From a virus, in the IMG/VR virus record IMGVR_UViG_3300032322_002195, positions 44,838 through 108,837 of that record: 64,000 bases of DNA; one strand, 5' to 3'. Below, piece by piece: positions 38,316 to 64,000 of the stretch (the stretch's first letter is position 1; each line of letters opens with the position of its first letter). The position numbers and the translations under genes were made by a program. A model generated the notes under the pieces. The model saw only the letters and a list, made by a program, of their open reading frames with translations, was not told the origin of the DNA and did not search any database.

Positions 38316-38394
38316 GGTTAAATGGCGTAGCTGGATAGCGCAAGGATAGTGGCAGACCCCACCCTTTACACAGGTTCGAATCCTGTTTTAACCA
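38316..38394 (+). ncRNA. tRNA-like RNA without a canonical anticodon loop
   Basis: acceptor GGTTAAA/TTTAACC-A, D-arm GCGT..GG..GCGC, T-arm ACAGG-TTCGAAT-CCTGT; central AAGG-ATA-GTGG-CAGACC-CCAC-CCTT. Confidence 0.7.
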
Positions 38395-38496
38395 CGAATG
38401 CAGTTCAAATCTGCTCGTTGACTGAGGTTATGGTAAGTAGACTATTGAGGTACGCACTCAACTTAGAAATAAGGTAGAATGAAGTGAACAGTCAAA

Positions 38497-42826: not shown

Positions 42827-43501
42827 TTAACTTTCAGCAACAAGTAGTGTTTTATACTCTTTTTCTGTTAAGTGTCTTGGTGTTTCCAATTCTTTGTAAC
42901 TACCTTTTGGTTTAATCAAAATACAATCACCTTGTCGGATAATCTTTTCAATCTTTCCTTTTGGCACATTCGTTTGAATAGTCCACGCAATACATTGAAT
43001 AGCGTTTACTTTATTTATTTCGTAATTCCAACTATTCTCGTTATTCGTGTTATACACACTACGAGGTTCAACCCAAATAAGATATTCTCTGTCGGTTGAT
43101 GTATCTTTGCATTTCACATAATATGAATTTTGCATTTTTTGCCAACCCTCTAACCCTTCACTAAATACTTCACCACTCACTTCATAAAGTTCATAGGTAT
43201 CATTGAATGTATGTTCAACAACTTCACCATTCTCTGTTACCCAAGTGGTTGATTTTGTCAGCGTTTTTGAACTAAGTAATTTAGGGTTTACTTCTTTAAC
43301 TAACCTATCCAACCCAAAGATAAGCATACCAACCCTTCTTTGTTCCAAATTAGGCAACCCAGCAATTTGTTTAAAAGATAGTGGTTTGATGTCTGCCCAA
43401 ATGTCTTCAAGTTCGGGGAAAGGACAATTTTCGTGTTTCAGTTTAAGTAAACCACACCCTAAATCATAAGGGAATTTTGTGTTGTTGATAACGATTTGCA
43501 T
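42827..43501 (-). CDS. protein resembling the C-terminal part of DUF6745-type proteins, with an RQGD tail
   Basis: NLEQRRV...G.DR, YELY, VKCKDTSTDREYLIWVEP, AIQCIAWT, IIRQGDC. Confidence 0.55.
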   Translation of the reverse strand: MQIVINNTKFPYDLGCGLLKLKHENCPFPELEDIWADIKPLSFKQIAGLPNLEQRRVGMLIFGLDRLVKEVNPKLLSSKTLTKSTTWVTENGEVVEHTFNDTYELYEVSGEVFSEGLEGWQKMQNSYYVKCKDTSTDREYLIWVEPRSVYNTNNENSWNYEINKVNAIQCIAWTIQTNVPKGKIEKIIRQGDCILIKPKGSYKELETPRHLTEKEYKTLLVAES

Positions 43502-49185: not shown

Positions 49186-49431
49186 AAGTATTAATTTCAA
49201 TGAACGTGAGACAAAGGTAAGAAATAATTTTGATATTACCAAATTTATTTTACCTTTTCAATGGCTGAAGATATTATCGTTCCTAATATAATTAATAATG
49301 ATTGGGTACCGATAATTTTTAAATAAATTTCGTTTTTATCACTCCAAAGAGCAAGTACGGCTATTGGAAACATACTAAGTAATATCAACCCAAGAATAGC
49401 GTTAATAGTTTTTTTCATTTTTTTGTTTTTG

Positions 49432-49505
49432 TGCGCCCTGCTGGGCTCGAACCAGCGACCTATTGATTATGAGTCAATTGCTCTGACCAACTGAGCTAAG
49501 GGCGC
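49432..49505 (-). tRNA. tRNA with CAT anticodon (Ile2-like; Met not excluded)
   Basis: GCGCCCT TA GCTC AGTTGGTCA GAGC A ATTGA CTCATAA TCAAT AGGTC GCTGG TTCGAGC CCAGC AGGGCGC A. Confidence 0.93.
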
Positions 49506-55102: not shown

Positions 55103-55249
55103 TTAAATTAATTTATTTTCTACTGAACGCCCTACTGAACCCCATACTGAACGACTTGCTGAACTCAATACTGAACGCCATACTGAATTCCATACTGAAT
55201 CCTGTACTGAATTCCCTACTGAATCACTTATTGATTTACCTATATTCAT
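55103..55249 (-). CDS. SVxx tetrapeptide-repeat mini-protein (48 aa, not in track)
   Basis: MNIGKSISDSVGNSVQDSVWNSVWRSVLSSASRSVWGSVGRSVENKLI. Confidence 0.65.
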   Translation of the reverse strand: MNIGKSISDSVGNSVQDSVWNSVWRSVLSSASRSVWGSVGRSVENKLI

Positions 55250-55428
55250 TTTATTATATTTCTAGTTGGTCTCCTTACTGAATCCCTTACTGAATTCCGT
55301 ACTGAATTCAATACTGAAATAATTACTGAATTCCGTACTGAATTCAATACTGAATTACTTACTGAAATCAATACTGAATTACTTACTGAATTACTTACTT
55401 TATCTTTAACTGATTTACCTATTTCCAT
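55246..55428 (-). CDS. SVxx tetrapeptide-repeat mini-protein
   Basis: MEIGKSVKDKV-(SVxx)n-RPTRNI. Confidence 0.7.
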   Translation of the reverse strand: MEIGKSVKDKVSNSVSNSVLISVSNSVLNSVRNSVIISVLNSVRNSVRDSVRRPTRNIIK

Positions 55429-55534
55429 GTCTTATATTTCTGGTTGGTCTACTTACTGAATTCAATACTGAATTCCATACTGAATCAAATGCTAAATTAC
55501 TTACTTTAAACTTAATTGGTTTACCTATTTCCAT
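55415..55534 (-). CDS. SVxx tetrapeptide-repeat mini-protein (39 aa, not in track)
   Basis: MEIGKPIKFKVSNLAFDSVWNSVLNSVSRPTRNIRHGNR. Confidence 0.6.
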   Translation of the reverse strand: MEIGKPIKFKVSNLAFDSVWNSVLNSVSRPTRNIRHGNR

Positions 55535-55549
55535 AATCAGCCAAAATTA

Positions 55550-57764
55550 TTAAATATTAGAATGTTTTGGCTGATTTCTTTTATTATAATCAGCCAAAAT
55601 CCTTTTGTATTTAGCTAAATAATCCTCATATAACCCAATGTTAATTTGTTTTAATTTATTTAAATTAACAGGGGCTAACGTTTCACTAGGTTTCTTGGTT
55701 CCCAATCTTATTGCTCGAATTCCGTTTTCAATATTTTTTATATACAATTCCTCAGCTGTCATCACATTTATTTTTTAAATAATCTTTCCAACGCCTTTTG
55801 TTGGTCAATTTTTTCTCGCACCTCTTTGGCTGTCAATAAATGTACATACTGGAAGTCCCACGCATCGCCCAAAGGTAGGTGAACCAACTCAACTGGTTTC
55901 ATACTGGCAACCATATACTCCGCATAGCCATCAGCCACAGGAAAACGTATGATTTCACCAACATTTTTTTCGTTGTTGTGTTTCTGTAACATAGCCTTTA
56001 ATTCTGCTTTGTATTTATCACAAGCTTTCTCATAACCATTGATATTGCTAAAATCCAATTCGGGTACTTTGATTGATTTGGGTGCTAAATAAACTTTTGC
56101 CATCGTATTATTGTTTTTGATTATGATACAAAGATAAAAAAAAGAAATGACACTACCAAATGATAGCGTCACTTTTTTTAAAATAAATGTTGTGGTATGT
56201 TGGTATTCAATACCTCTTTGCCCTCTGCTTTGGCTTTGGCAATAGCGTTCTTTAATACCTCACGACCATTCGGTGCACTAACCAATTCAGCAATGGTAAT
56301 ATTACGACTGCCACTTTTCCATGTAAGTTGTGTGTAACCATTAGGTGTTTTTATACACAAACTTGTGAGCATATCCTTTTGTAACTTCTTGTCAAACTTG
56401 GCTTGGTCTTTGGCTTTTAACCAATCTTCCAACAAAAGGTCAATCTTAAATTCTAAATTCATTGGAAAATTAAAAACACTCGGTAACCCCAAACAAAATT
56501 GTTCAGCTTGTTTAAGCAATTCACGTTTGCCTTCGTAGGCATGATAAAAGGTAGAACCACCATGCCCATCATTTTTGGCATAGGCTACCTTTACATCGTT
56601 TACATACACATCAGCAACAAACGCATTGGTTTCCTCTGACATGGCTTCACTAAACTTGATGTTCTTTAATTGAATGTTCATGTTTTTTTATTGATTTAAG
56701 GCAAAGATAAATAAAATATTTTAATCTACCAAATTTATTTTGAATTATTTATAGCTTCAAGCCAATTCTCTAATGTTTCAAAATACCCATCACCTTCATC
56801 AGCCCAACTATAACCCTCAAATTCTTTCTCAAATTTGTCAGTCCAATCCTCCGCAAGTTCATATATTCCACCAATACCTTGCGTTTCTGATACCTCTTTT
56901 ATATTACCCCTAGGTTTGTCCGATAATCTTTCAATGGTAATAAATGAAACAATCTCATGATACGTTTCAAGCCATGATGAAAATCCGTTTGGAAATACTT
57001 TATTCATTTTACTTTCGTTTAATTGATTAAGGCAAAGATAGTAATTATTTTGTAACTACCAAATTTATTTTAAAAATAAATCCCCCTAATTTCTTAGAGG
57101 GATTTTTATACTACTTTATTTAACTTGCCAAAGCAACAAATGATTTTTGGATTTCTTTGTCAATTTGGATTAATTCATCCAAAGTGCTTGTGTTAGGCAC
57201 TTTATCTTTATGCGAGTATTGATACCTTCTATACTCCAACCCCACAATCTTATACACAACAATTTCTTTTCCACTTTCAAGTTTATGGGTTACCCTATCT
57301 CTTTTAAAATCAATGAAAATTTGCTGATAGTTCATACCATTGCAATAATCATATCGTGAATCTGAACTTGCGTATGGTCTTTTTTTGCTGACAACAAACA
57401 AATACATCTCATTGTATTCGTTTTTGGACAAAGGTTTTTCTTGAGTACCTTCGATTAATTTTTCGATAGTACCCTTCATATCTTGGTACATAGAATGACC
57501 TATTTGCACATCGAATACTTTCCCATACTCTTCCTTAAAGGCTTTCAATTCTTCTTCAAATTGATTTAGAAACACCTTCATCATCGTAAGGTTATGCTTT
57601 GTAATGGTTTGCTTAAACCTATCCTCTTCTTGAATGCACTCATTGATTGTATCAAAAGAGAATCTTTTACCCCCACCTACCTTTGGTTTTGGATTAATTC
57701 GTTCAAACTCTTTGATAAGGTCATCCACCAACCCTTGCTGAAATGATGTTAAATTGTTTGTCAT
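55550..57764 (-). CDS. hypothetical genes (55550-55765, 55768-~56103, 56178-56681, 56735-57007, 57120-57764)
   Basis: ORF track plus promoter repeats; 56178-56681 has SEET.AF.A...NDGHGG motif. Confidence 0.65.
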
Positions 57765-57826
57765 TTTTTTAATTATTTAATTGATTAACGAATGCAAAGA
57801 TAGTAATTATTTTGTAACTACCAAAT

Positions 57827-58018
57827 TTATTTTGTTGAATTTCTTACTGAATCATCTACTGACAACCATACTGAATTCTCTACGTCATGTACTGAAATCC
57901 ATACTGAATCAATTACTGAATCACTTACTGAATTACCTACTGAATTAGTTAATGAATTCCTTACTGAATACCATACTGACTTACTTATTTTACCTTTAAC
58001 TGGTTTACCTATATTCAT
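57827..58018 (-). CDS. SVxx tetrapeptide-repeat mini-protein
   Basis: MNIGKPVKGKI-(SVxx)n. Confidence 0.7.
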   Translation of the reverse strand: MNIGKPVKGKISKSVWYSVRNSLTNSVGNSVSDSVIDSVWISVHDVENSVWLSVDDSVRNSTK

Positions 58019-58028
58019 ATTACTTTAT

Positions 58029-58779
58029 TTAAAAATTAGCCCTCAAATCTCCATAAGCCAAAGGAATACCACAATTTCCCCATTGAACATTTCCATCCAA
58101 ATACTCTTGCTTCATTTCAGTTGTAATAGTATCCAATAAATAATCGTATGCTATTTTCAACATTTCTGGTCTGTTGGTAGTTGGTGGATAAAAACCAAAT
58201 ATGTTATCCCTTGAATTAAGAATAAAGAAAATAAATACCCTACGTTTACCAAGTCCATATTGGTGAATATCTACCAACTTCTTAAACTTCGCAAAACTTA
58301 TTGGTTCACCAGTCTCCGTAATTAAACCCAATTCCTTCATCTTATGGGTTAAAATTGATATTGGTAATCTCATGTCTTTATTGATTTAATTGATTAAGGC
58401 AAAGATAAATAAAATATTTTAATTAACCAAATCTTAATTTAAAAATTTGTTCTTTGTATTTTTCATCTGTCAAAAAATCAGAAAAAAACCTATGCCTGAT
58501 TTCAGTTATTTTACCACCAGTCGTTGTGAAAAAATCATCCCCATCAGTTAATAAATCAGTTTTATGTTTTTTCATTTCACCATGTAATAACTTTTCAGTT
58601 TCAGCGTCTATCTTAACTGATGTGTTATGAAGAATACTTACTTCATTTACATTAAGAATAATTTGTTTCTCACCTATTTTAGTCCTCTTATCAAAACTAA
58701 AACTAATGTTACCAATAGGTATTAAATTAAAATTTTTTGTGCCTGTGAATTTCATGATTTGATTATTTTGATACCGCAA
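58029..58779 (-). CDS. two hypothetical genes (58029-58373, 58423-~58755)
   Basis: ORF track plus promoter repeats. Confidence 0.6.
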
Positions 58780-58846
58780 AGATAAACATTATTTTGTAAC
58801 TACCAAATTTATTTCAAAAAACCCCCCTAATAAATTAGAGGAATTT

Positions 58847-59101
58847 TTATTCTACTTTATTTAAAATTCTTATAACTACTGAATCCCATACTGAATTCCT
58901 TACTGAATTAGTTACTGAATCACTTACTGAATTCCATACTGAATCCTCTACTGAATCATATACTGAATCCTGTACTGAATTACTTACTGAATCATCTACT
59001 GAACGCCATACTGAATTACCTACTGAATCATCTACTGAACCCCATACTGAACGCCTTACTGAATTCCTTACTTTATCTTTAACTGATTTACCCAAATCCA
59101 T
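58847..59101 (-). CDS. SVxx tetrapeptide-repeat mini-protein with its own promoter and terminator
   Basis: MDLGKSVKDKV then 16 consecutive TTCAGTA-N5 units; promoter at ~59121, hairpin at ~58820. Confidence 0.75.
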   Translation of the reverse strand: MDLGKSVKDKVRNSVRRSVWGSVDDSVGNSVWRSVDDSVSNSVQDSVYDSVEDSVWNSVSDSVTNSVRNSVWDSVVIRILNKVE

Positions 59102-59275
59102 ATTTAAAGTTTTAATAATGCAAAGATAAATAAAATATTTGATTCCACCAAATTTAATTTAAACTAGCTAATGCTAATAAAATTAATTCATCCAAAATTA
59201 CATATATCGGAACCCCTCGCTCCTTTGCCCTTATTTCCAATTCCTCAATCGTTATATTTATCATTTTTATCCTAA

Positions 59276-60118
59276 TTAATTTAAAACCATTTCCTTCTCA
59301 CCTACCTTTGAATAAAGTTCATTTAACTTTTCTTCAAGGGTTTGTGTTTTTACCACAAACCCACTAGAAAAAGCTAATTTGTTTTTTTCACCTCCACCTT
59401 TGCCAGTCATGAATTTATATTTCAATCCTAAAATAACACCTTTTGGTTTTAAGAAAGTTAAATCATCTTCATCCCCACTAATTACTTCAAACCCTTCATA
59501 AGTACTTGGTAATTTGTCAAATACAATCGCAACGTTTTTCCCCTTATTCAATAATTCAATTGCCTTAGCATGATTGGTTTCAGAACGACTGAAAGTCAAA
59601 TGATAATTGCTTGGTAATGCCTTTTCAAACCTTGTATGATTTTTTGTGTAATCATAAAAAGTTATATCACTATGTTTTTCAAAGATATTTTTACCCTCAA
59701 ATATCTTAAATTTCTCAAATACAATATCAGCAGTACCATTCAATCTTACCACCAATTCATGCGTAAGTTTAAATTTAGTTTTTAAATTGGTAATCTCTTC
59801 GTCAAGTTGATTCATAAAACCAATTCTATCTCTTAAGAAATATTCGGTCTTATCAATGCGACCTTGCATTACCTTTGGAAACATACCACCATTTCCACTA
59901 CCTACTAAACAAGTTGCGGCACAACCAGTCGAAGCATGAGAACATAAATTAATACCCTTGCTATTATTCGTATAGGAACTTAAATACATAATAGCTGTTT
60001 TGTAAGGTAAACCCTTTTTGTTGTAAACGTTTTCACCTTTCACTGTTTTGGCGTTGTTAAATGTCAATAATTGTTTGTTGTATTTCATTTTATTATATTG
60101 ATTAATTATCGGGTACAA
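59276..60118 (-). CDS. Gp88-like (radical-SAM-like CxxxxxxCxxxC) phage protein
   Basis: LCSHASTGCAATCL, VRLNGTAD, FYDYTK, NYHLTFSRSE; likely start MKYNKQ at 60088. Confidence 0.7.
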   Translation of the reverse strand: MYPIINQYNKMKYNKQLLTFNNAKTVKGENVYNKKGLPYKTAIMYLSSYTNNSKGINLCSHASTGCAATCLVGSGNGGMFPKVMQGRIDKTEYFLRDRIGFMNQLDEEITNLKTKFKLTHELVVRLNGTADIVFEKFKIFEGKNIFEKHSDITFYDYTKNHTRFEKALPSNYHLTFSRSETNHAKAIELLNKGKNVAIVFDKLPSTYEGFEVISGDEDDLTFLKPKGVILGLKYKFMTGKGGGEKNKLAFSSGFVVKTQTLEEKLNELYSKVGEKEMVLN

Positions 60119-60206
60119 AGATAAGCATAATTTTTAATCTACCAAATTTTTATTGTATAATCGTAAAAACTTTTTACTTTCTGATATTTATTATTAAATT
60201 TAATTT

Positions 60207-60821
60207 ATGAAAAAATGTAATATATGTAATTTGGAAAAAGAAATAGATGCTTTTACTAAAACCAAATATAAAGGTGAGATAAAATATAGACCTACCTGTA
60301 AACAATGTACTTCTGAAAGAGTTAAAAAATGGGTAAATGATAATAAAGAAAAAAGAAAAGAATATATTAAAAATTATTCGAAAATTAATAAAGATTATAT
60401 AAATAAAAAAAGCCGAGATTATTATAAAAATAATACTGAAAAAGTCATAAAGTATTCGATTGAATATAAAAAGAATAGAAGAAAAAATGATGAGGTTTTT
60501 AGAATAAGTGATAATTTTAGAAAATTAATTCAAAAATCATTTCTAAAAATAAACCATAAAAAAACTTCTAAATCAATTCATATTCTTGGCTGTTCTTATG
60601 AAGATTTTAAACTACATCTCGAATCAAAATTTGAGTCTTGGATGAACTGGGATAATTATGCGAAATATAACACAACACCTAATTATGGTTGGGATATTGA
60701 CCATATTATACCAATATCATTGGCTAAAACTGTTGAAGATGTTATTAGATTGAACCATTATACCAATCTTCAACCATTATGTAGTTATATCAACAGACAT
60801 ATTAAAAGGGATAAAATTTAA
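60207..60821 (+). CDS. HNH homing endonuclease
   Basis: N-terminal CxxC...CKxC; WMNWDNY...WDIDHIIP...LNHYTNLQPL; inserted opposite to the array. Confidence 0.85.
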   Translation: MKKCNICNLEKEIDAFTKTKYKGEIKYRPTCKQCTSERVKKWVNDNKEKRKEYIKNYSKINKDYINKKSRDYYKNNTEKVIKYSIEYKKNRRKNDEVFRISDNFRKLIQKSFLKINHKKTSKSIHILGCSYEDFKLHLESKFESWMNWDNYAKYNTTPNYGWDIDHIIPISLAKTVEDVIRLNHYTNLQPLCSYINRHIKRDKI

Positions 60822-60970
60822 TTGTTTATCGGGTGCAAAGATAGTAAATTATTTTAATCTACCAAATTTATTTTCAAAAAAATCCCCCTAATTTCTTAGA
60901 GGGATTTTTATTTTAATTAAGATAAAAGTTTTTACCTTAGCCGTATGAATGTTTTAAACCTTAAAATATT

Positions 60971-61609
60971 TTACCATTCTGGTTTAGACATATCTTTTTT
61001 TAATTTATCTATTAATGAAAGTAAATCATAATCAGTTTTTGGTTTGACGTTATAAAATTCAAGTTCATTTGAATTAAATGATTCGTCAACTGATACCTTC
61101 CAATTTTCAATAGCGGCTCTTGATAATCCAAGTATATTGTTTTCCCCTGAATAATGTACTATCCAAGATTGCCCATTAAATTTATTGATAAAGAAAACAT
61201 TTTCAATATCTATTATTGGCTCATTACCTATAAATTTAATTTTTAAAAATGTTTGCCCTTTTAATACTCCACATTTAGTTATATTTCCAAATTCAATAAA
61301 CGTTTCATCAACTTTATAATCACAATCAATTTCGTATTTATATTTCGTGTCTTTACAAGATATTGTAATTGTAACATCCCGTTTATCTTTACCTAATAAC
61401 CCCCTACCAATAATTTTACCAGTTTCTGGGTCTTTCATTTGGATTACATTATTTGCCGAATTAAATGTATTAGCAAAAAACGACAATGCGTTACTATACA
61501 AAATTTCTTTTGTAAAACTTGAATCAACAGAAACAACTTCTGAGGTCGATTGTCCAAAAGAATAAAAATACAAAAATAAAATATTAAAAAGTAAAATAAG
61601 TTTCTTCAT
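60971..61609 (-). CDS. secreted DUF4468-like protein
   Basis: signal peptide ending SFGQ; LY.NA..F..TF.SANNVIQMKD.ETGKIIGRG. Confidence 0.65.
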   Translation of the reverse strand: MKKLILLFNILFLYFYSFGQSTSEVVSVDSSFTKEILYSNALSFFANTFNSANNVIQMKDPETGKIIGRGLLGKDKRDVTITISCKDTKYKYEIDCDYKVDETFIEFGNITKCGVLKGQTFLKIKFIGNEPIIDIENVFFINKFNGQSWIVHYSGENNILGLSRAAIENWKVSVDESFNSNELEFYNVKPKTDYDLLSLIDKLKKDMSKPEW

Positions 61610-61735
61610 TTGAATGTTTAATTAAATTGTTTATGCAAAGGTATTGAATTAATTTTAAACTACCAAATTTATTTTAAAAAAAAATCCCTCCATATTATAT
61701 GAAAGGATTTTTATTCTACTTAATTTAAAATTGGT

Positions 61736-62074
61736 TTATGATTGTGAAATTAAAGAAACCATTCCATTTTCATCCGCATTAAATTTTTCCCTAGCAAATG
61801 TTATAGCTTCTCCCCTTGTTTTAAACGATTGAACACAAATCCATTCATCACTATGTGAATTCGGAATGTCAACATAAAAGGTCTCAGTTCTTTCATCTAC
61901 ATCATCCACAAAAGTTGGTTCTTCAATATCCCCTTCTTCATAAGCAGCTATGGTATGATTAGGATAATCAGCTTTCGCATTCTTTAATTCCCGATATACC
62001 ATAAATGATGATAAATCACCAGACTCCCATTCCTCCCTAGATAAAATAGGTTGATAAAAAATTTCTTTACTCAT
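61736..62074 (-). CDS. hypothetical acidic protein
   Basis: 112 aa with own promoter. Confidence 0.65.
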   Translation of the reverse strand: MSKEIFYQPILSREEWESGDLSSFMVYRELKNAKADYPNHTIAAYEEGDIEEPTFVDDVDERTETFYVDIPNSHSDEWICVQSFKTRGEAITFAREKFNADENGMVSLISQS

Positions 62075-62230
62075 TGTATTATTATTTTTGATTATACCGC
62101 AAAGATAGATAAATTTTTTAAACCACCAAATTTATTTCAAACTTTTTTATCCCCCCCTTATATATTAATATTGTATATGAATTTATTTGAAAATAAATTT
62201 GGTGGTCTCATTTCTTTTACCTATCTTTGT

Positions 62231-62300
62231 CCCGTTGTTAATACAAAAACAACGGGCTGGGCTAACAACTTAGAAGAGTATACTCCAACCTGCCTTATAT
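62231..62300 (+). repeat. conserved non-coding element, copy 3 (inverted relative to copies 1-2)
   Basis: promoter TATCTTTG 62222-62229, hairpin CCCGTTGTT/AACAACGGG, 28-bp core. Confidence 0.85.
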
Positions 62301-62664
62301 CCTAATTTGTTAAAATATGTTAAAAATTTGGTAATGTCAAAATTTGTTTGTACCTTTGTGCTTTAACTTTAATCTTGTCTATATGATTCGGTATGTTAAT
62401 AACTTTGTTGATAACTTCAAAAAGAAAAATTTGGTGGTTACAAAAAGTTTTCATACCTTTGCTTTCACTAACTTAACGTGTATTCTAACATGAAACGAAT
62501 TTAAATACATACATATCTCAAAAATTTAACACCCCTTAAATAAAGGTCGTGTTATGCCCACTCCATAAGGATGATGGGCTATTCGTGTTTGTCCATGTGG
62601 AACAATTCACCCTTTCCCAAAATTCTGGGAGAAAATTCTTAAAGAGTTTACGAAAGGTATTATG

Positions 62665-62782
62665 TTTTATAACTTTATATAACTTTATATACCTTTATAT
62701 AACTTTATATATCTTTATAGATTTTTATAGATGTGTGTTTATAGATTTTTATAGATGTTTATTTATGTTTTATAGATATTTT
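62665..62782. repeat. AT-rich ~10-bp periodic repeats
   Basis: AACTTTATAT/ACCTTTATAT/ATCTTTATAG/ATTTTTATAG units. Confidence 0.75.
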
Positions 62783-63181
62783 TTTTGTGGTCCTCTGGGT
62801 ATATTTTATAGGTTTTTGTAACCATTTGATTATCAATTCCTAATTTTCATTTAAATTCCAGACACATTTTCCCACTTTCTCCCACTTTTTTCCAGAAATT
62901 CTTAAAAATCCTCAAAAAAAGCTTAACGTGCTAACGTGGGTACGGTTTTGCTGGGGTTATGTACACAAATGTGTACATTTTTAGGGTATTACATTTAAAA
63001 TTTTATACAGTTTATGTGATATAGTTTTTATTATTAGGTTGTTATATAATATGGCACAATTTTTATTTTATTTTCTGGGTTTTTCACGTTATTTTTTTTA
63101 GGGTTATGGAATATTGTCAAATGGTGTTATATATTTTTTAATAGTAAAAATAGTTTATGTACACAAATGTGTACATTGGTT

Positions 63182-63409
63182 TTAAGTCAATCTATTTTTA
63201 GCCCGTCTAATTGGTCGAATGACAGAATTCCTTACTGAACGCCATACTGAATCAATTACTGAATCCCATACTGAACTCCCTACTGAATCCCTTACTGAAT
63301 CATATACTGAATCATCTACTGAATTCCATACTGAACGCCTTACTGAATTCCTTACTGAATTCCTTACTGACTTAATTATTTTACCTTTAACTGATTTACC
63401 TAGTTCCAT
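63182..63409 (-). CDS. SVxx tetrapeptide-repeat mini-protein
   Basis: MELGKSVKGKI-(SVxx)n-RPIRR. Confidence 0.7.
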   Translation of the reverse strand: MELGKSVKGKIIKSVRNSVRNSVRRSVWNSVDDSVYDSVRDSVGSSVWDSVIDSVWRSVRNSVIRPIRRAKNRLT

Positions 63410-63611
63410 TTATTATATTTTGAATTTGTCTGGTTACTGAATCCCTTACTGAAAGCCATACTGAATTACTTACTGAATCACTTACTGAATCATATACTGA
63501 ATCATCTACTAAATACCATACTGAACGCCTTACTGAACTCCGTACTGAATCACTTACTGAATTCGTTACTGAATTAGTTACTTTGCTTTTAACTGAATTA
63601 CCTAGTTTCAT
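63396..63611 (-). CDS. SVxx tetrapeptide-repeat mini-protein
   Basis: MKLGNSVKSKV-(SVxx)n; 14-nt overlap with next gene. Confidence 0.7.
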   Translation of the reverse strand: MKLGNSVKSKVTNSVTNSVSDSVRSSVRRSVWYLVDDSVYDSVSDSVSNSVWLSVRDSVTRQIQNIINGTR

Positions 63612-63753
63612 TTCTTATATTACGGGTTGGTCGCATGACCGAATCATTTATTGAATCTTGAATTGAGTTATATACTGAATTCGTCACTGAATCACTTACT
63701 GAATCATATACTGAATCTTTTACTGAATCACTTATTGATTTACCTAGTTTCAT
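63598..63753 (-). CDS. SVxx tetrapeptide-repeat mini-protein (51 aa, not in track)
   Basis: MKLGKSISDSVKDSVYDSVSDSVTNSVYNSIQDSINDSVMRPTRNIRNETR. Confidence 0.65.
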   Translation of the reverse strand: MKLGKSISDSVKDSVYDSVSDSVTNSVYNSIQDSINDSVMRPTRNIRNETR

Positions 63754-63967
63754 GTCTTATATTTCTGGTTGTTATGACTACTGAATCATATACTGAATTC
63801 CTTACTGAATCCAATACTGAACTCCGTACTGAATTCCATACTGAATTCCATACTGAATTAGTTAATGAATTAGTTAATGAATTAAATACTGAAATCATTA
63901 CTGAATTATTTAGTGAACGCCATACGGAATCACTTACTTTTTTATTTACTGGTTTACCTAGTTCCAT
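63740..63967 (-). CDS. SVxx tetrapeptide-repeat mini-protein
   Basis: MELGKPVNKKV-(SVxx)n-TRNIRHETR. Confidence 0.7.
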   Translation of the reverse strand: MELGKPVNKKVSDSVWRSLNNSVMISVFNSLTNSLTNSVWNSVWNSVRSSVLDSVRNSVYDSVVITTRNIRHETR

Positions 63968-64000
63968 TTTCTTATATTTCCAGTTGAATTATATACTGAA
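63958..64000 (-). CDS. SVxx mini-protein, 3' end only (array continues beyond window)
   Basis: ...SVYNSTGNIRKWN*. Confidence 0.55.
   Translation of the reverse strand, partial: SVYNSTGNIRKWN

What the first reader, a model, noticed from the sequence alone, without database searches (positions are those of the whole stretch)
55103..64000. Multigene family of (Ser-Val-x-x)n mini-proteins encoded by a fixed-7/variable-5 12-bp repeat
Seen: at least 10 paralogues in four loci (three at 55.1-55.5 kb, 57.8, 58.8, five or more from 63.2 kb on). Each has a conserved head M(E/K/N/D)(L/I)GK(S/P)(V/I), 3-16 units and often an RPxRNI tail that overlaps the next start. The unit is TTCAGTA+N5. Synonymous positions are almost invariant (TCA GTA, and the preceding codon ends in T), while the two variable residues come from a small set (R,W,S,D,Y,T,L,G then N,D,R,S,G,I) in a different order in every copy. 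One copy has its own promoter and terminator, supporting expression. Inference: a combinatorially diversified repeat system. Options are variable binding or amyloid/solenoid-like decoy peptides with a two-residue code, or a nucleic-acid-level array (protein-binding sponge, antitoxin-like RNA repeats).
Basis: partly seen in the sequence, partly recalled or inferred. Interest (0 to 1): 0.85.

Follow-up and report, generated by a model that had tools for sequence, protein, structure and literature searches.

The report
Stand-alone Ser-Val tetrapeptide-repeat phage mini-genes
An uncultured freshwater phage carries ten tiny genes made almost only of a four-residue repeat (x-x-Ser-Val), free-standing copies of a fast-changing tract that thousands of phage and prophage proteins carry internally; a similarly built tract in mycobacteriophage Tweety tunes escape from a bacterial defence, but what these copies do is unknown.

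Summary
Nine complete and one cut minus-strand mini-genes (39-84 aa) sit at four loci. Each is a head (M-x-[LI]-G-K), 3-17 units of x1-x2-Ser-Val, and a short tail. Ser-Val is TCA-GTA in 80 of 88 cases (log10 P about -74 under this phage's codon usage).

These are protein-coding genes, not a nucleic-acid motif array. The repeat matches the internal tract of DUF6745 (PF20530) and other multidomain proteins (E down to 1e-44; 3907 cluster representatives). In 63 loci from bacteria, archaea and phages, the same 7 nt are frozen within a gene, yet 23 different heptamers occur between genomes. Only Ser-Val is conserved.

Pham et al. 2007 described the same 12-bp pattern in mycobacteriophage Tweety gp54, later shown to be a counter-defence protein tuned by repeat number.

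AlphaFold2 and ESM Atlas both model a mini-protein as one long helix. The nearest relative found lacks all four loci although the flanking genes are syntenic, so these are accessory cassettes.

This scan has already reported the same kind on other DNA (54 findings in at least 33 genomes). Function remains inferred.

The parts
55103..55249 (-). mini-gene, 48 aa, last of a three-gene cluster; followed 6 nt later by a glucosaminidase-domain gene
55246..55428 (-). mini-gene, 60 aa; its stop overlaps the next start by 4 nt (ATGA)
55415..55534 (-). mini-gene, 39 aa, shortest copy (3 Ser-Val units); 14-nt overlap with the next gene
55535..55605 (-). leader with three copies of a 12-nt element (TTTTGGCTGATT and its complement) that form a strong hairpin just upstream of the first mini-gene start; possible regulator
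   Evidence: MFE -18.9 kcal/mol, z = -4.0
57827..58018 (-). mini-gene, 63 aa, with one in-frame 3-nt deletion in a unit; starts 10 nt after the stop of the 114-aa gene 58029-58373 and has no promoter of its own
58400..58431 (-). Bacteroidota-type promoter that would drive gene 58029-58373 together with mini-gene 57827-58018 (inferred)
58847..59101 (-). mini-gene, 84 aa, 17 units, monocistronic
   Evidence: AlphaFold2 model is one helix over residues 3-83, pLDDT 79.7
59121..59152 (-). own promoter (TTTG-N-TAnnTTTG type), ending 20 nt upstream of the ATG at 59101
   Evidence: 67 such sites in the window against 8 expected
58817..58848 (-). terminator-like 14-bp hairpin with U run, directly after the stop codon
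   Evidence: z = -3.08
63182..63409 (-). mini-gene, 75 aa, last of the tandem chain at the contig end
63396..63611 (-). mini-gene, 71 aa, 14-nt overlaps on both sides
63598..63753 (-). mini-gene, 51 aa
63740..63967 (-). mini-gene, 75 aa
63958..64000 (-). 3' end of a tenth mini-gene, cut by the end of the contig; the array probably continues beyond it
   Evidence: read; contig end
42827..43501 (-). 224-aa conserved protein, remote homologue of the C-terminal half of DUF6745; only a candidate relative or partner, and its link to the mini-genes is weak
   Evidence: hhalign 96-97% probability, E 3.5e-9 and 2.2e-11; a relative that holds it lacks mini-genes

Best explanation
What it is. These are real, expressed protein genes. 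Each encodes a free-standing copy of the variable tetrapeptide tract (x1-x2-Ser-Val)n that many phage and prophage accessory proteins carry between two domains (most often with DUF6745; a similarly built tract occurs in Tweety gp54). Each product is probably one long helix, or a flexible rod, of 3-17 units with a different surface. Net charge ranges from -3 to +9.

How the DNA pattern arises (inferred). The fixed-7/variable-5 pattern is not a binding motif. Recombination or slippage in 12-nt register keeps the Ser, Val and preceding third-position bases identical within a genome. Because this always happens in frame, it changes unit number and order. Selection keeps the two exposed residues diverse.

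Where the genes sit. They are accessory cassettes placed between early-type genes. Most are co-transcribed with neighbours or chained by overlapping stop and start codons.

Likely function (by analogy only). They are a quickly re-tunable protein-level module in phage-host conflict, such as counter-defence or a decoy.
For: Shown:
- Start codons, one reading frame and unit phase are kept in 9 of 9 complete copies. The only within-array length change is an in-frame 3-nt deletion.
- One copy has its own promoter and terminator.
- The 84-aa copy matches proteins with the same tract inside larger architectures at E down to 2.8e-44, most with PF20530. P0010 and P0014 are stand-alone homologues with the same head and tail. 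A profile finds 3907 cluster representatives.
- In 63 loci the 7 nt are near-invariant within a gene but take 23 forms between genomes. Examples are 63/63 C-AGT-GTT, 69/69 C-AGC-GTG and 41/41 C-TCG-GTC.
- Sister phages G001 and G002 have 36 and 5 intact mini-genes (motif count) beside DNA that is 91.6% identical.
- The closest relative found (G003, syntenic genes 57-86% identical) has the flanking genes adjacent and no mini-gene at the loci compared.
- AlphaFold2 gives one helix at pLDDT 79.7. The ESM Atlas model is the same (pLDDT 0.77), and virus-only clusters of 65-86 aa look alike.

From papers:
- Tweety gp54 has a 12-bp unit with invariant first six bases and invariant third codon positions (PMC2884959).
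- Its defence-escape mutants change repeat number and overcome Phrann gp29/gp30 (PMC9262239).
Against: - No expression data were found.
- The function rests on analogy with a protein whose end domains the mini-proteins lack.
- Tweety gp54 is not DUF6745 and has an Ala-Ala repeat, so homology to it is unproven.
- Inside a full DUF6745 protein the tract is modelled at pLDDT below 35. Ser, Val, Asn, Asp and Gly are poor helix formers, so the helix may be wrong.
- Adjacent identical units are not more frequent than chance, so simple recent slippage is not visible.
- The window phage and the G001/G002 pair, which shared no detectable non-repeat homology in the flanks compared, use the same heptamer TTCAGTA. 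This needs either transfer of arrays or a constraint that I cannot name.
Confidence: 0.6

Rival explanations
1. Exchangeable inserts for a core protein. The mini-proteins act in trans by docking onto a repeat-less DUF6745-like core, so one core can carry many alternative helices.
For: In sister phages G001 and G002 a repeat-less DUF6745-like protein (402 aa, homologous to P0021, which has the tract inside) lies directly upstream of the mini-genes. Earlier notes of this scan report such docking models in other phages (not checked here). The window encodes a remote homologue of the C-terminal half of DUF6745 at 42827-43501.
Against: The held 108.8-kb contig has no full DUF6745. The 224-aa homologue lacks the N-terminal domain and the first half of DUF6745. 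It lies 12 kb away. It is conserved in a complete 298.8-kb relative (G004) that has no mini-genes.
Confidence: 0.15
2. Selfish or neutral by-product. A recombination-prone 12-bp minisatellite, broken off from a DUF6745-type gene, spreads as small ORFs that are tolerated but do nothing.
For: Presence is patchy. The loci are absent from the nearest relative and from a complete relative. The frame stays open partly by construction, because x1 is NNK and x2 is NNT. Arrays break assemblies at contig ends.
Against: Heads, starts and phase are kept in 9/9 copies here and in 41 copies (36 + 5) in the sister phages. One copy has a dedicated promoter and terminator. Stand-alone forms fill several virus-only Atlas clusters of 51-76 members. 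The variable residues are far more diverse than the synonymous sites.
Confidence: 0.15
3. Nucleic-acid-level array. TTCAGTA spaced every 12 nt acts as a DNA or RNA sponge or binding array, and the ORFs are incidental.
For: Synonymous sites are frozen far beyond codon bias. The window phage and the G001/G002 pair share the same heptamer although no other homology was detected between the flanks compared.
Against: Homologous arrays elsewhere use 22 other heptamers and keep only the encoded Ser-Val. The arrays are strand-specific with conserved ATG heads. No Rfam family reaches its gathering score (best 27.8 bits against 70, E 0.073).
Confidence: 0.05
4. Programmed hypermutation, such as a diversity-generating retroelement acting on the 5 variable bases.
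For: [quoted passage not shown]
Against: The adenines inside the fixed heptamer (TCA, GTA here; AGC elsewhere) never vary. No reverse transcriptase is present in the contig. Bacterial arrays use a closed set of about six unit types, with either AGG or CGG for Arg but not both.
Confidence: 0.03

Closest known systems
Internal tetrapeptide tract of DUF6745 (Pfam PF20530) proteins of bacteria, archaea, phages and prophages
   Same: Same x-x-Ser-Val unit in the same frame. Same 12-bp DNA unit with 7 frozen bases. Sequence match down to E 2.8e-44.
   Different: There the tract sits between an N-terminal domain of about 75 aa and the 206-aa DUF6745 domain. The variable residues come from a small set (W/R/G then D/A or D/N). 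Here the tract stands alone with a 3-residue cap and a wider residue set, in ten copies.
Mycobacteriophage Tweety gp54 (phrog_3416; Che8 gp57, PMC gp51)
   Same: Tetrapeptide repeat on a 12-bp unit with an invariant dipeptide, invariant third codon positions and a variable dipeptide that includes W/G. Repeat number differs between related phages. It is non-essential and sits among early genes (PMC2884959). Repeat number tunes counter-defence (PMC9262239).
   Different: The fixed dipeptide is Ala-Ala, not Ser-Val. It has end domains of about 140 aa and 40 aa that the mini-proteins lack. It has no Pfam family and is not DUF6745. It is one gene, not a family.
Second architecture with the same tract (e.g. 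P0048, P0052, P0094; some with DUF551)
   Same: Identical Ser-Val tract.
   Different: The tract is flanked by a 130-aa N-domain and a 50-aa C-domain ending in a conserved W-R-L-H motif. Neither domain is present in the contig.
Bordetella phage BMP-1 bbp36 VR2 (as described in PMC2884959)
   Same: In-gene tandem repeat with a fixed part and a 5-bp variable part. Copy number varies between isolates. The gene is non-essential.
   Different: The unit is 24 bp (19 fixed + 5). The protein is unrelated. Not examined here.
TAL effector repeats with repeat-variable di-residues (from general knowledge, analogy only)
   Same: Near-identical repeats, at the DNA level too, with two variable residues per unit.
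   Different: Units are 34 aa, and a DNA-reading function is known. There is no sequence or size relation and no evidence for a code here.

Membership tests
DUF6745 (PF20530) proteins | C-terminal DUF6745 domain of about 206 aa | tested here: not met
   No Pfam hit in any of the five mini-proteins scanned. No PF20530 or phrog_31813 match in the contig. Only a remote half-domain homologue in a separate gene at 42827-43501.
DUF6745 (PF20530) proteins | Internal x-x-Ser-Val tract homologous to that of family members | tested here: met
   E 2.8e-44 to 1e-8 against proteins carrying PF20530. Profile search finds 3907 representatives.
Tweety gp54 type (phrog_3416) | Conserved N- and C-terminal domains flanking the repeat | tested here: not met
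   The mini-proteins have only a head and tail of a few residues. tblastn with the gp54 ends finds nothing significant in the contig.
Tweety gp54 type (phrog_3416) | 12-bp unit with fixed dipeptide codons and fixed third positions, and variable first and second positions of the other two codons | tested here: met
   Entropy profile compared with the description in PMC2884959.
Tweety gp54 type (phrog_3416) | Counter-defence activity tuned by repeat number | not testable with these tools
   Needs a host and a defence assay.
Diversity-generating retroelement target | Reverse transcriptase, template repeat, adenine-specific changes | tested here: not met
   No RVT_1 in the contig. Adenines of the heptamer are invariant. 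The contig is only 32% of the genome.
Pentapeptide or other beta-solenoid repeats | Period of 5 (or coil of 12-20) with beta structure | tested here: not met
   The period is 4. No Pfam repeat family matches. Both models are helical. Models of repeats can be wrong.
Non-coding minisatellite or RNA repeat family | No conserved frame; conserved nucleotide motif across carriers | tested here: not met
   Frame and starts are conserved. There are 23 heptamers across carriers. No Rfam family reaches its gathering score (best 27.8 bits against 70, E 0.073).

The most novel reading that the evidence does not exclude
In-register recombination on a frozen 7-nt scaffold may be a general, so far unnamed way of generating diversity, used from mycobacteria to archaea. 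It would shuffle a small pool of two-residue cassettes and change tract length without ever breaking the frame. Large phages would then have released the tract as a library of free helices that serve as interchangeable specificity modules against host defences.
Probability: 0.2. Interest if true: 0.8.

Novelty: new variant of a known kind. Interest (0 to 1): 0.6.

Why it matters
A similarly built repeat in Tweety gp54 is so far the only tract of this design shown to set the outcome of a phage-defence encounter, and it does so through its length.

Stand-alone copies offer the simplest test object for this tract. A 40-84-residue peptide can be synthesised, its structure measured, and its effect on defences assayed without the end domains.

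The cross-genome result also matters. The same seven bases are frozen within each gene but differ between genomes, across 63 loci. This turns a curiosity noted once in 2007 into a family-wide rule. It poses a clear evolutionary question: how are synonymous sites held still while the neighbouring bases vary?

Tried and rejected
- Pfam and PHROGs on five of the mini-proteins gave only chance-level hits. Weak PHROG matches of tract-bearing proteins to a tape-measure family (phrog_1272) look like composition effects.
- Fold searches of a full DUF6745 model found nothing (Foldseek best E 0.28; VIA-align best Z 4.5, on the low-confidence helices only).
- The homodimer job on the 84-aa protein gave no verdict (score 0.00). 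It counts neither way.
- No RNA holder was listed among public runs.
- The lay of four DNA runs used contigs only. X1 holds the sequence exactly and is probably its source. Short contigs from lake and freshwater runs cover parts. One X2 contig lacks 12 nt in the 58.9-kb array, and one has two 3-nt gaps near 57840. These may be paralogues or relatives, so they are no proof of population variation.
- An exact scan for the head/tail junction in viral contigs found none.
- Rfam found nothing above chance.
- Pfam and PHROGs found nothing for the 224-aa protein.
- The DNA-mimic idea was dropped because net charge runs from -3 to +9.


Full report
**Setting.**
The window is the last 64 kb of a 108,837-bp viral contig that CheckV rates 32% complete. 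It has about 30% G+C. It encodes a portal, a large terminase, a thymidylate synthase and an ATP-dependent protease. Between 36 and 62 kb nearly every small gene has its own Bacteroidota-type promoter, TTTG-N17-23-TAnnTTTG. There are 67 such sites against 8 expected, almost all on the minus strand. A tRNA-Met is 96.5% identical to that of Flavobacterium phages. Parts of the region occur in lake and freshwater metagenome runs. This looks like a large freshwater phage of a Bacteroidota host.

**The observation.**
Nine complete minus-strand ORFs and the end of a tenth have the described build.
- After M-x-[LI] the protein runs in one phase of four residues. The first two units are degenerate (G-K-S-V, K-D-K-V), followed by 3-17 units of x1-x2-S-V and a short tail.
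- Ser-Val is TCA-GTA in 80 of 88 cases, and the preceding codon ends in T. This phage's long ORFs use TCA for 32.5% of Ser and GTA for 27.3% of Val, so log10 P is about -74.
- Arg at x1 is AGG or CGG and never AGA, which is the phage's usual Arg codon.
- The five variable bases read NNK-NN. The 85 units hold 37 distinct 5-mers. x1 and x2 are linked more than chance. Identical neighbouring units are not enriched.
- One unit has lost 3 nt, in frame.
- In the tandem chains the stop of one gene lies inside the G-K codons of the next head, giving a 14-nt overlap. Part of the conserved tail is therefore the next gene's start region read in another frame.
- The 58.8-kb copy is a complete unit with promoter, ORF and terminator hairpin.
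- The 57.8-kb copy follows a 114-aa gene by 10 nt.
- The 55-kb cluster follows a strong hairpin and runs into a glucosaminidase-domain gene.

**What it is related to.**
No Pfam or PHROG family fits the mini-proteins. A database search with the 84-aa copy finds the same tract in other proteins:
- a few stand-alone proteins with the same head and tail (P0010, P0014);
- very many longer proteins, down to E 2.8e-44, most carrying DUF6745 (PF20530) after the tract and a 75-aa domain before it;
- a second architecture with other end domains.

A profile of 28 mini-proteins finds 3907 cluster representatives. The ESM Atlas shows several virus-only clusters of 65-86 aa that look alike.

Two related viral contigs carry the free-standing form. 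G001 has 36 intact mini-genes by motif count (41 profile matches). G002 has 5 (6 profile matches). Both lie next to a repeat-less DUF6745-like gene. The two contigs are 91.6% identical over the 2.2 kb that end in the first mini-gene. That gene has the same head in both but is 57 aa in one and 99 aa in the other, with different units.

**The fixed-7/variable-5 rule is family-wide, and the seven bases are not a motif.**
I fetched 80 loci from bacterial and archaeal genomes. They include Mycobacterium, Xenococcus, Thalassoglobus, Prevotella, Dehalococcoidia, Saccharibacteria and Nanoarchaeia. In each I counted codons in the tract.
- In almost every gene the third base of x2, the Ser codon and the Val codon are identical in all units. 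Examples are 63/63, 69/69 and 41/41.
- The heptamer differs between genomes. There are 23 forms in 63 loci, and they use both Ser codon families.
- Bacterial tracts vary essentially at two bases. This gives W/R/G (NGG) at x1 and D/A or D/N at x2. Each genome uses either AGG or CGG for Arg.

What is conserved across life is therefore Ser-Val and a short list of exposed residues. What is conserved within a gene is sameness of the DNA. This rules out a shared DNA or RNA recognition motif. It also rules out adenine-directed hypermutation, because the adenines in the heptamer never vary and no reverse transcriptase is present.

The simplest reading is inferred rather than shown. Frequent recombination or slippage in 12-nt register homogenises the units, while selection keeps x1 and x2 mixed.

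One point stays open. The window phage and the G001/G002 pair share the heptamer TTCAGTA, although the 20 kb of each sister contig beside its array holds no non-repeat ORF with a detectable match in the window's contig. Transfer of arrays between phages would explain this.

**Structure.**
AlphaFold2 with the family alignment gives one helix over residues 3-83 at pLDDT 79.7. The Atlas model agrees at 0.77.

In a full DUF6745 protein the two end domains are confident (about 90), but the tract is below 35. The composition is poor in helix formers.

I take 'long helix or flexible rod' as the working model. With a period of 4 the Val stripe would wind around a helix by 40 degrees per unit, and the hydrophobic moment peaks at 90 degrees. 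Net charge ranges from -3 to +9, so the copies differ in surface and are not DNA mimics.

The DUF6745 fold matched nothing solved.

**Accessory nature.**
A 224-aa protein of the window (42827-43501) led to relatives.

The closest, G003, keeps the gene order of window 54.5-60.1 kb at 57-82% protein identity. Its flanking genes are adjacent, with only a promoter between them, where the window has the 55-kb cluster and the 57.8-kb copy. At the position of the 58.8-kb unit it carries a different small gene. No mini-gene is found anywhere in its 97 kb.

A complete 298.8-kb relative (G004) also has none. The same search finds 11, 41 and 6 matches in the window's contig, G001 and G002.

The mini-genes are therefore cassettes gained or lost at several intergenic sites.

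**The 224-aa protein.**
It is a remote homologue of the C-terminal half of DUF6745 (hhalign 96-97% probability, E 3.5e-9 and 2.2e-11). Its family is conserved whether or not mini-genes are present, so its link to them is weak.

**Known precedent.**
Pham et al. 2007 (PMC2884959) described Tweety gp54. It has 48 tetrapeptide units on a 12-bp repeat. The first six bases and the third codon positions are invariant, and the other positions vary (G/W/Q, then S/Y). They read this as selection for variation. They also noted different unit numbers in Che8 and PMC, absence from Llij, and a likeness to VR2 of Bordetella phage BMP-1.

A 2022 review (PMC9262239) reports that Tweety mutants escaping the Phrann gp29/gp30 (p)ppGpp-synthetase defence map to gene 54 and differ in repeat number.

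I checked gp54 itself. It has Ala-Ala units, its own end domains, phrog_3416 and no Pfam family. It is therefore a functional and architectural analogue, perhaps a distant relative, and not the same family.

**Earlier notes of this scan.**
The scan has already reported the free-standing form on other DNA: 54 findings in at least 33 genomes, including G002. They gave me the Tweety lead, which I verified. They also gave the docking idea, which I could not test.

**Verdict.**
The reading as a combinatorially varied protein repeat is supported, and the nucleic-acid reading is not. The tract belongs to a catalogued but unstudied family, and its free-standing multi-copy form was not found in the papers searched. 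Function is inferred only by analogy.

Noticed in passing
window 42827-43501 (-): A 224-aa protein with its own promoter. It belongs to a very conserved family (1256 hits, 64-99% identity, no Pfam or PHROG) and is a remote homologue of the C-terminal half of DUF6745 (hhalign 97%).
   Followed up: partly
window 62100-63180: ORF-poor block between the mini-gene chain and the early genes. It has three plus-strand promoter copies (62198-62229, 62327-62358, 62430-62461) with no ORF behind them. The third is followed by a structured stretch of about 130 nt (62468-62600, z = -2.84). Also present are 10-bp and 24-bp tandem repeats at 62668-62781 and two copies of the 20-nt palindrome ATGTACACAAATGTGTACAT (62959-62978, 63157-63176). 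Possibly small RNAs plus an origin or operator region. About 700 bp of it is conserved in relative G003.
   Followed up: partly
window 55535-55605 (-): Three copies of a 12-nt element form alternative hairpins directly upstream of the first mini-gene of the 55-kb cluster (z = -4.0). In relative G003 a promoter sits at this place instead.
   Followed up: partly
window 36000-62200, mostly (-): About 55 near-identical Bacteroidota-type promoter repeats (AAATTTGGTAG...TATCTTTG), one per small gene. The stop codon of the upstream gene often lies in the first bases of the repeat.
   Followed up: partly
window 60207-60821 (+): A His-Me finger (HNH-like) endonuclease on the opposite strand, inside a 2-kb segment absent at this position in G003. 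G003 has three paralogues elsewhere, so this is probably a homing endonuclease.
   Followed up: partly
window 59276-60088 (-): A GP88-family protein (PF17338, phrog_1617) of unknown function, between two mini-gene loci. It is conserved in G003.
   Followed up: no
window 38316-38395 (+) and 49431-49505 (-): ARAGORN reports a tRNA-like gene with an undefined two-base anticodon and a tRNA-Met. The latter is 96.5% identical to the tRNA-Met of Flavobacterium phages of the elemo group.
   Followed up: no
L051, L067, L096, L101, L103, L106 (bacterial and archaeal loci): A minority of tracts hold two Ser or Val codon forms side by side (e.g. GTT 13 / GTC 8; GTA 6 / GTG 6). This looks like two sub-arrays caught during homogenisation and may show how the heptamer changes over time.
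   Followed up: no
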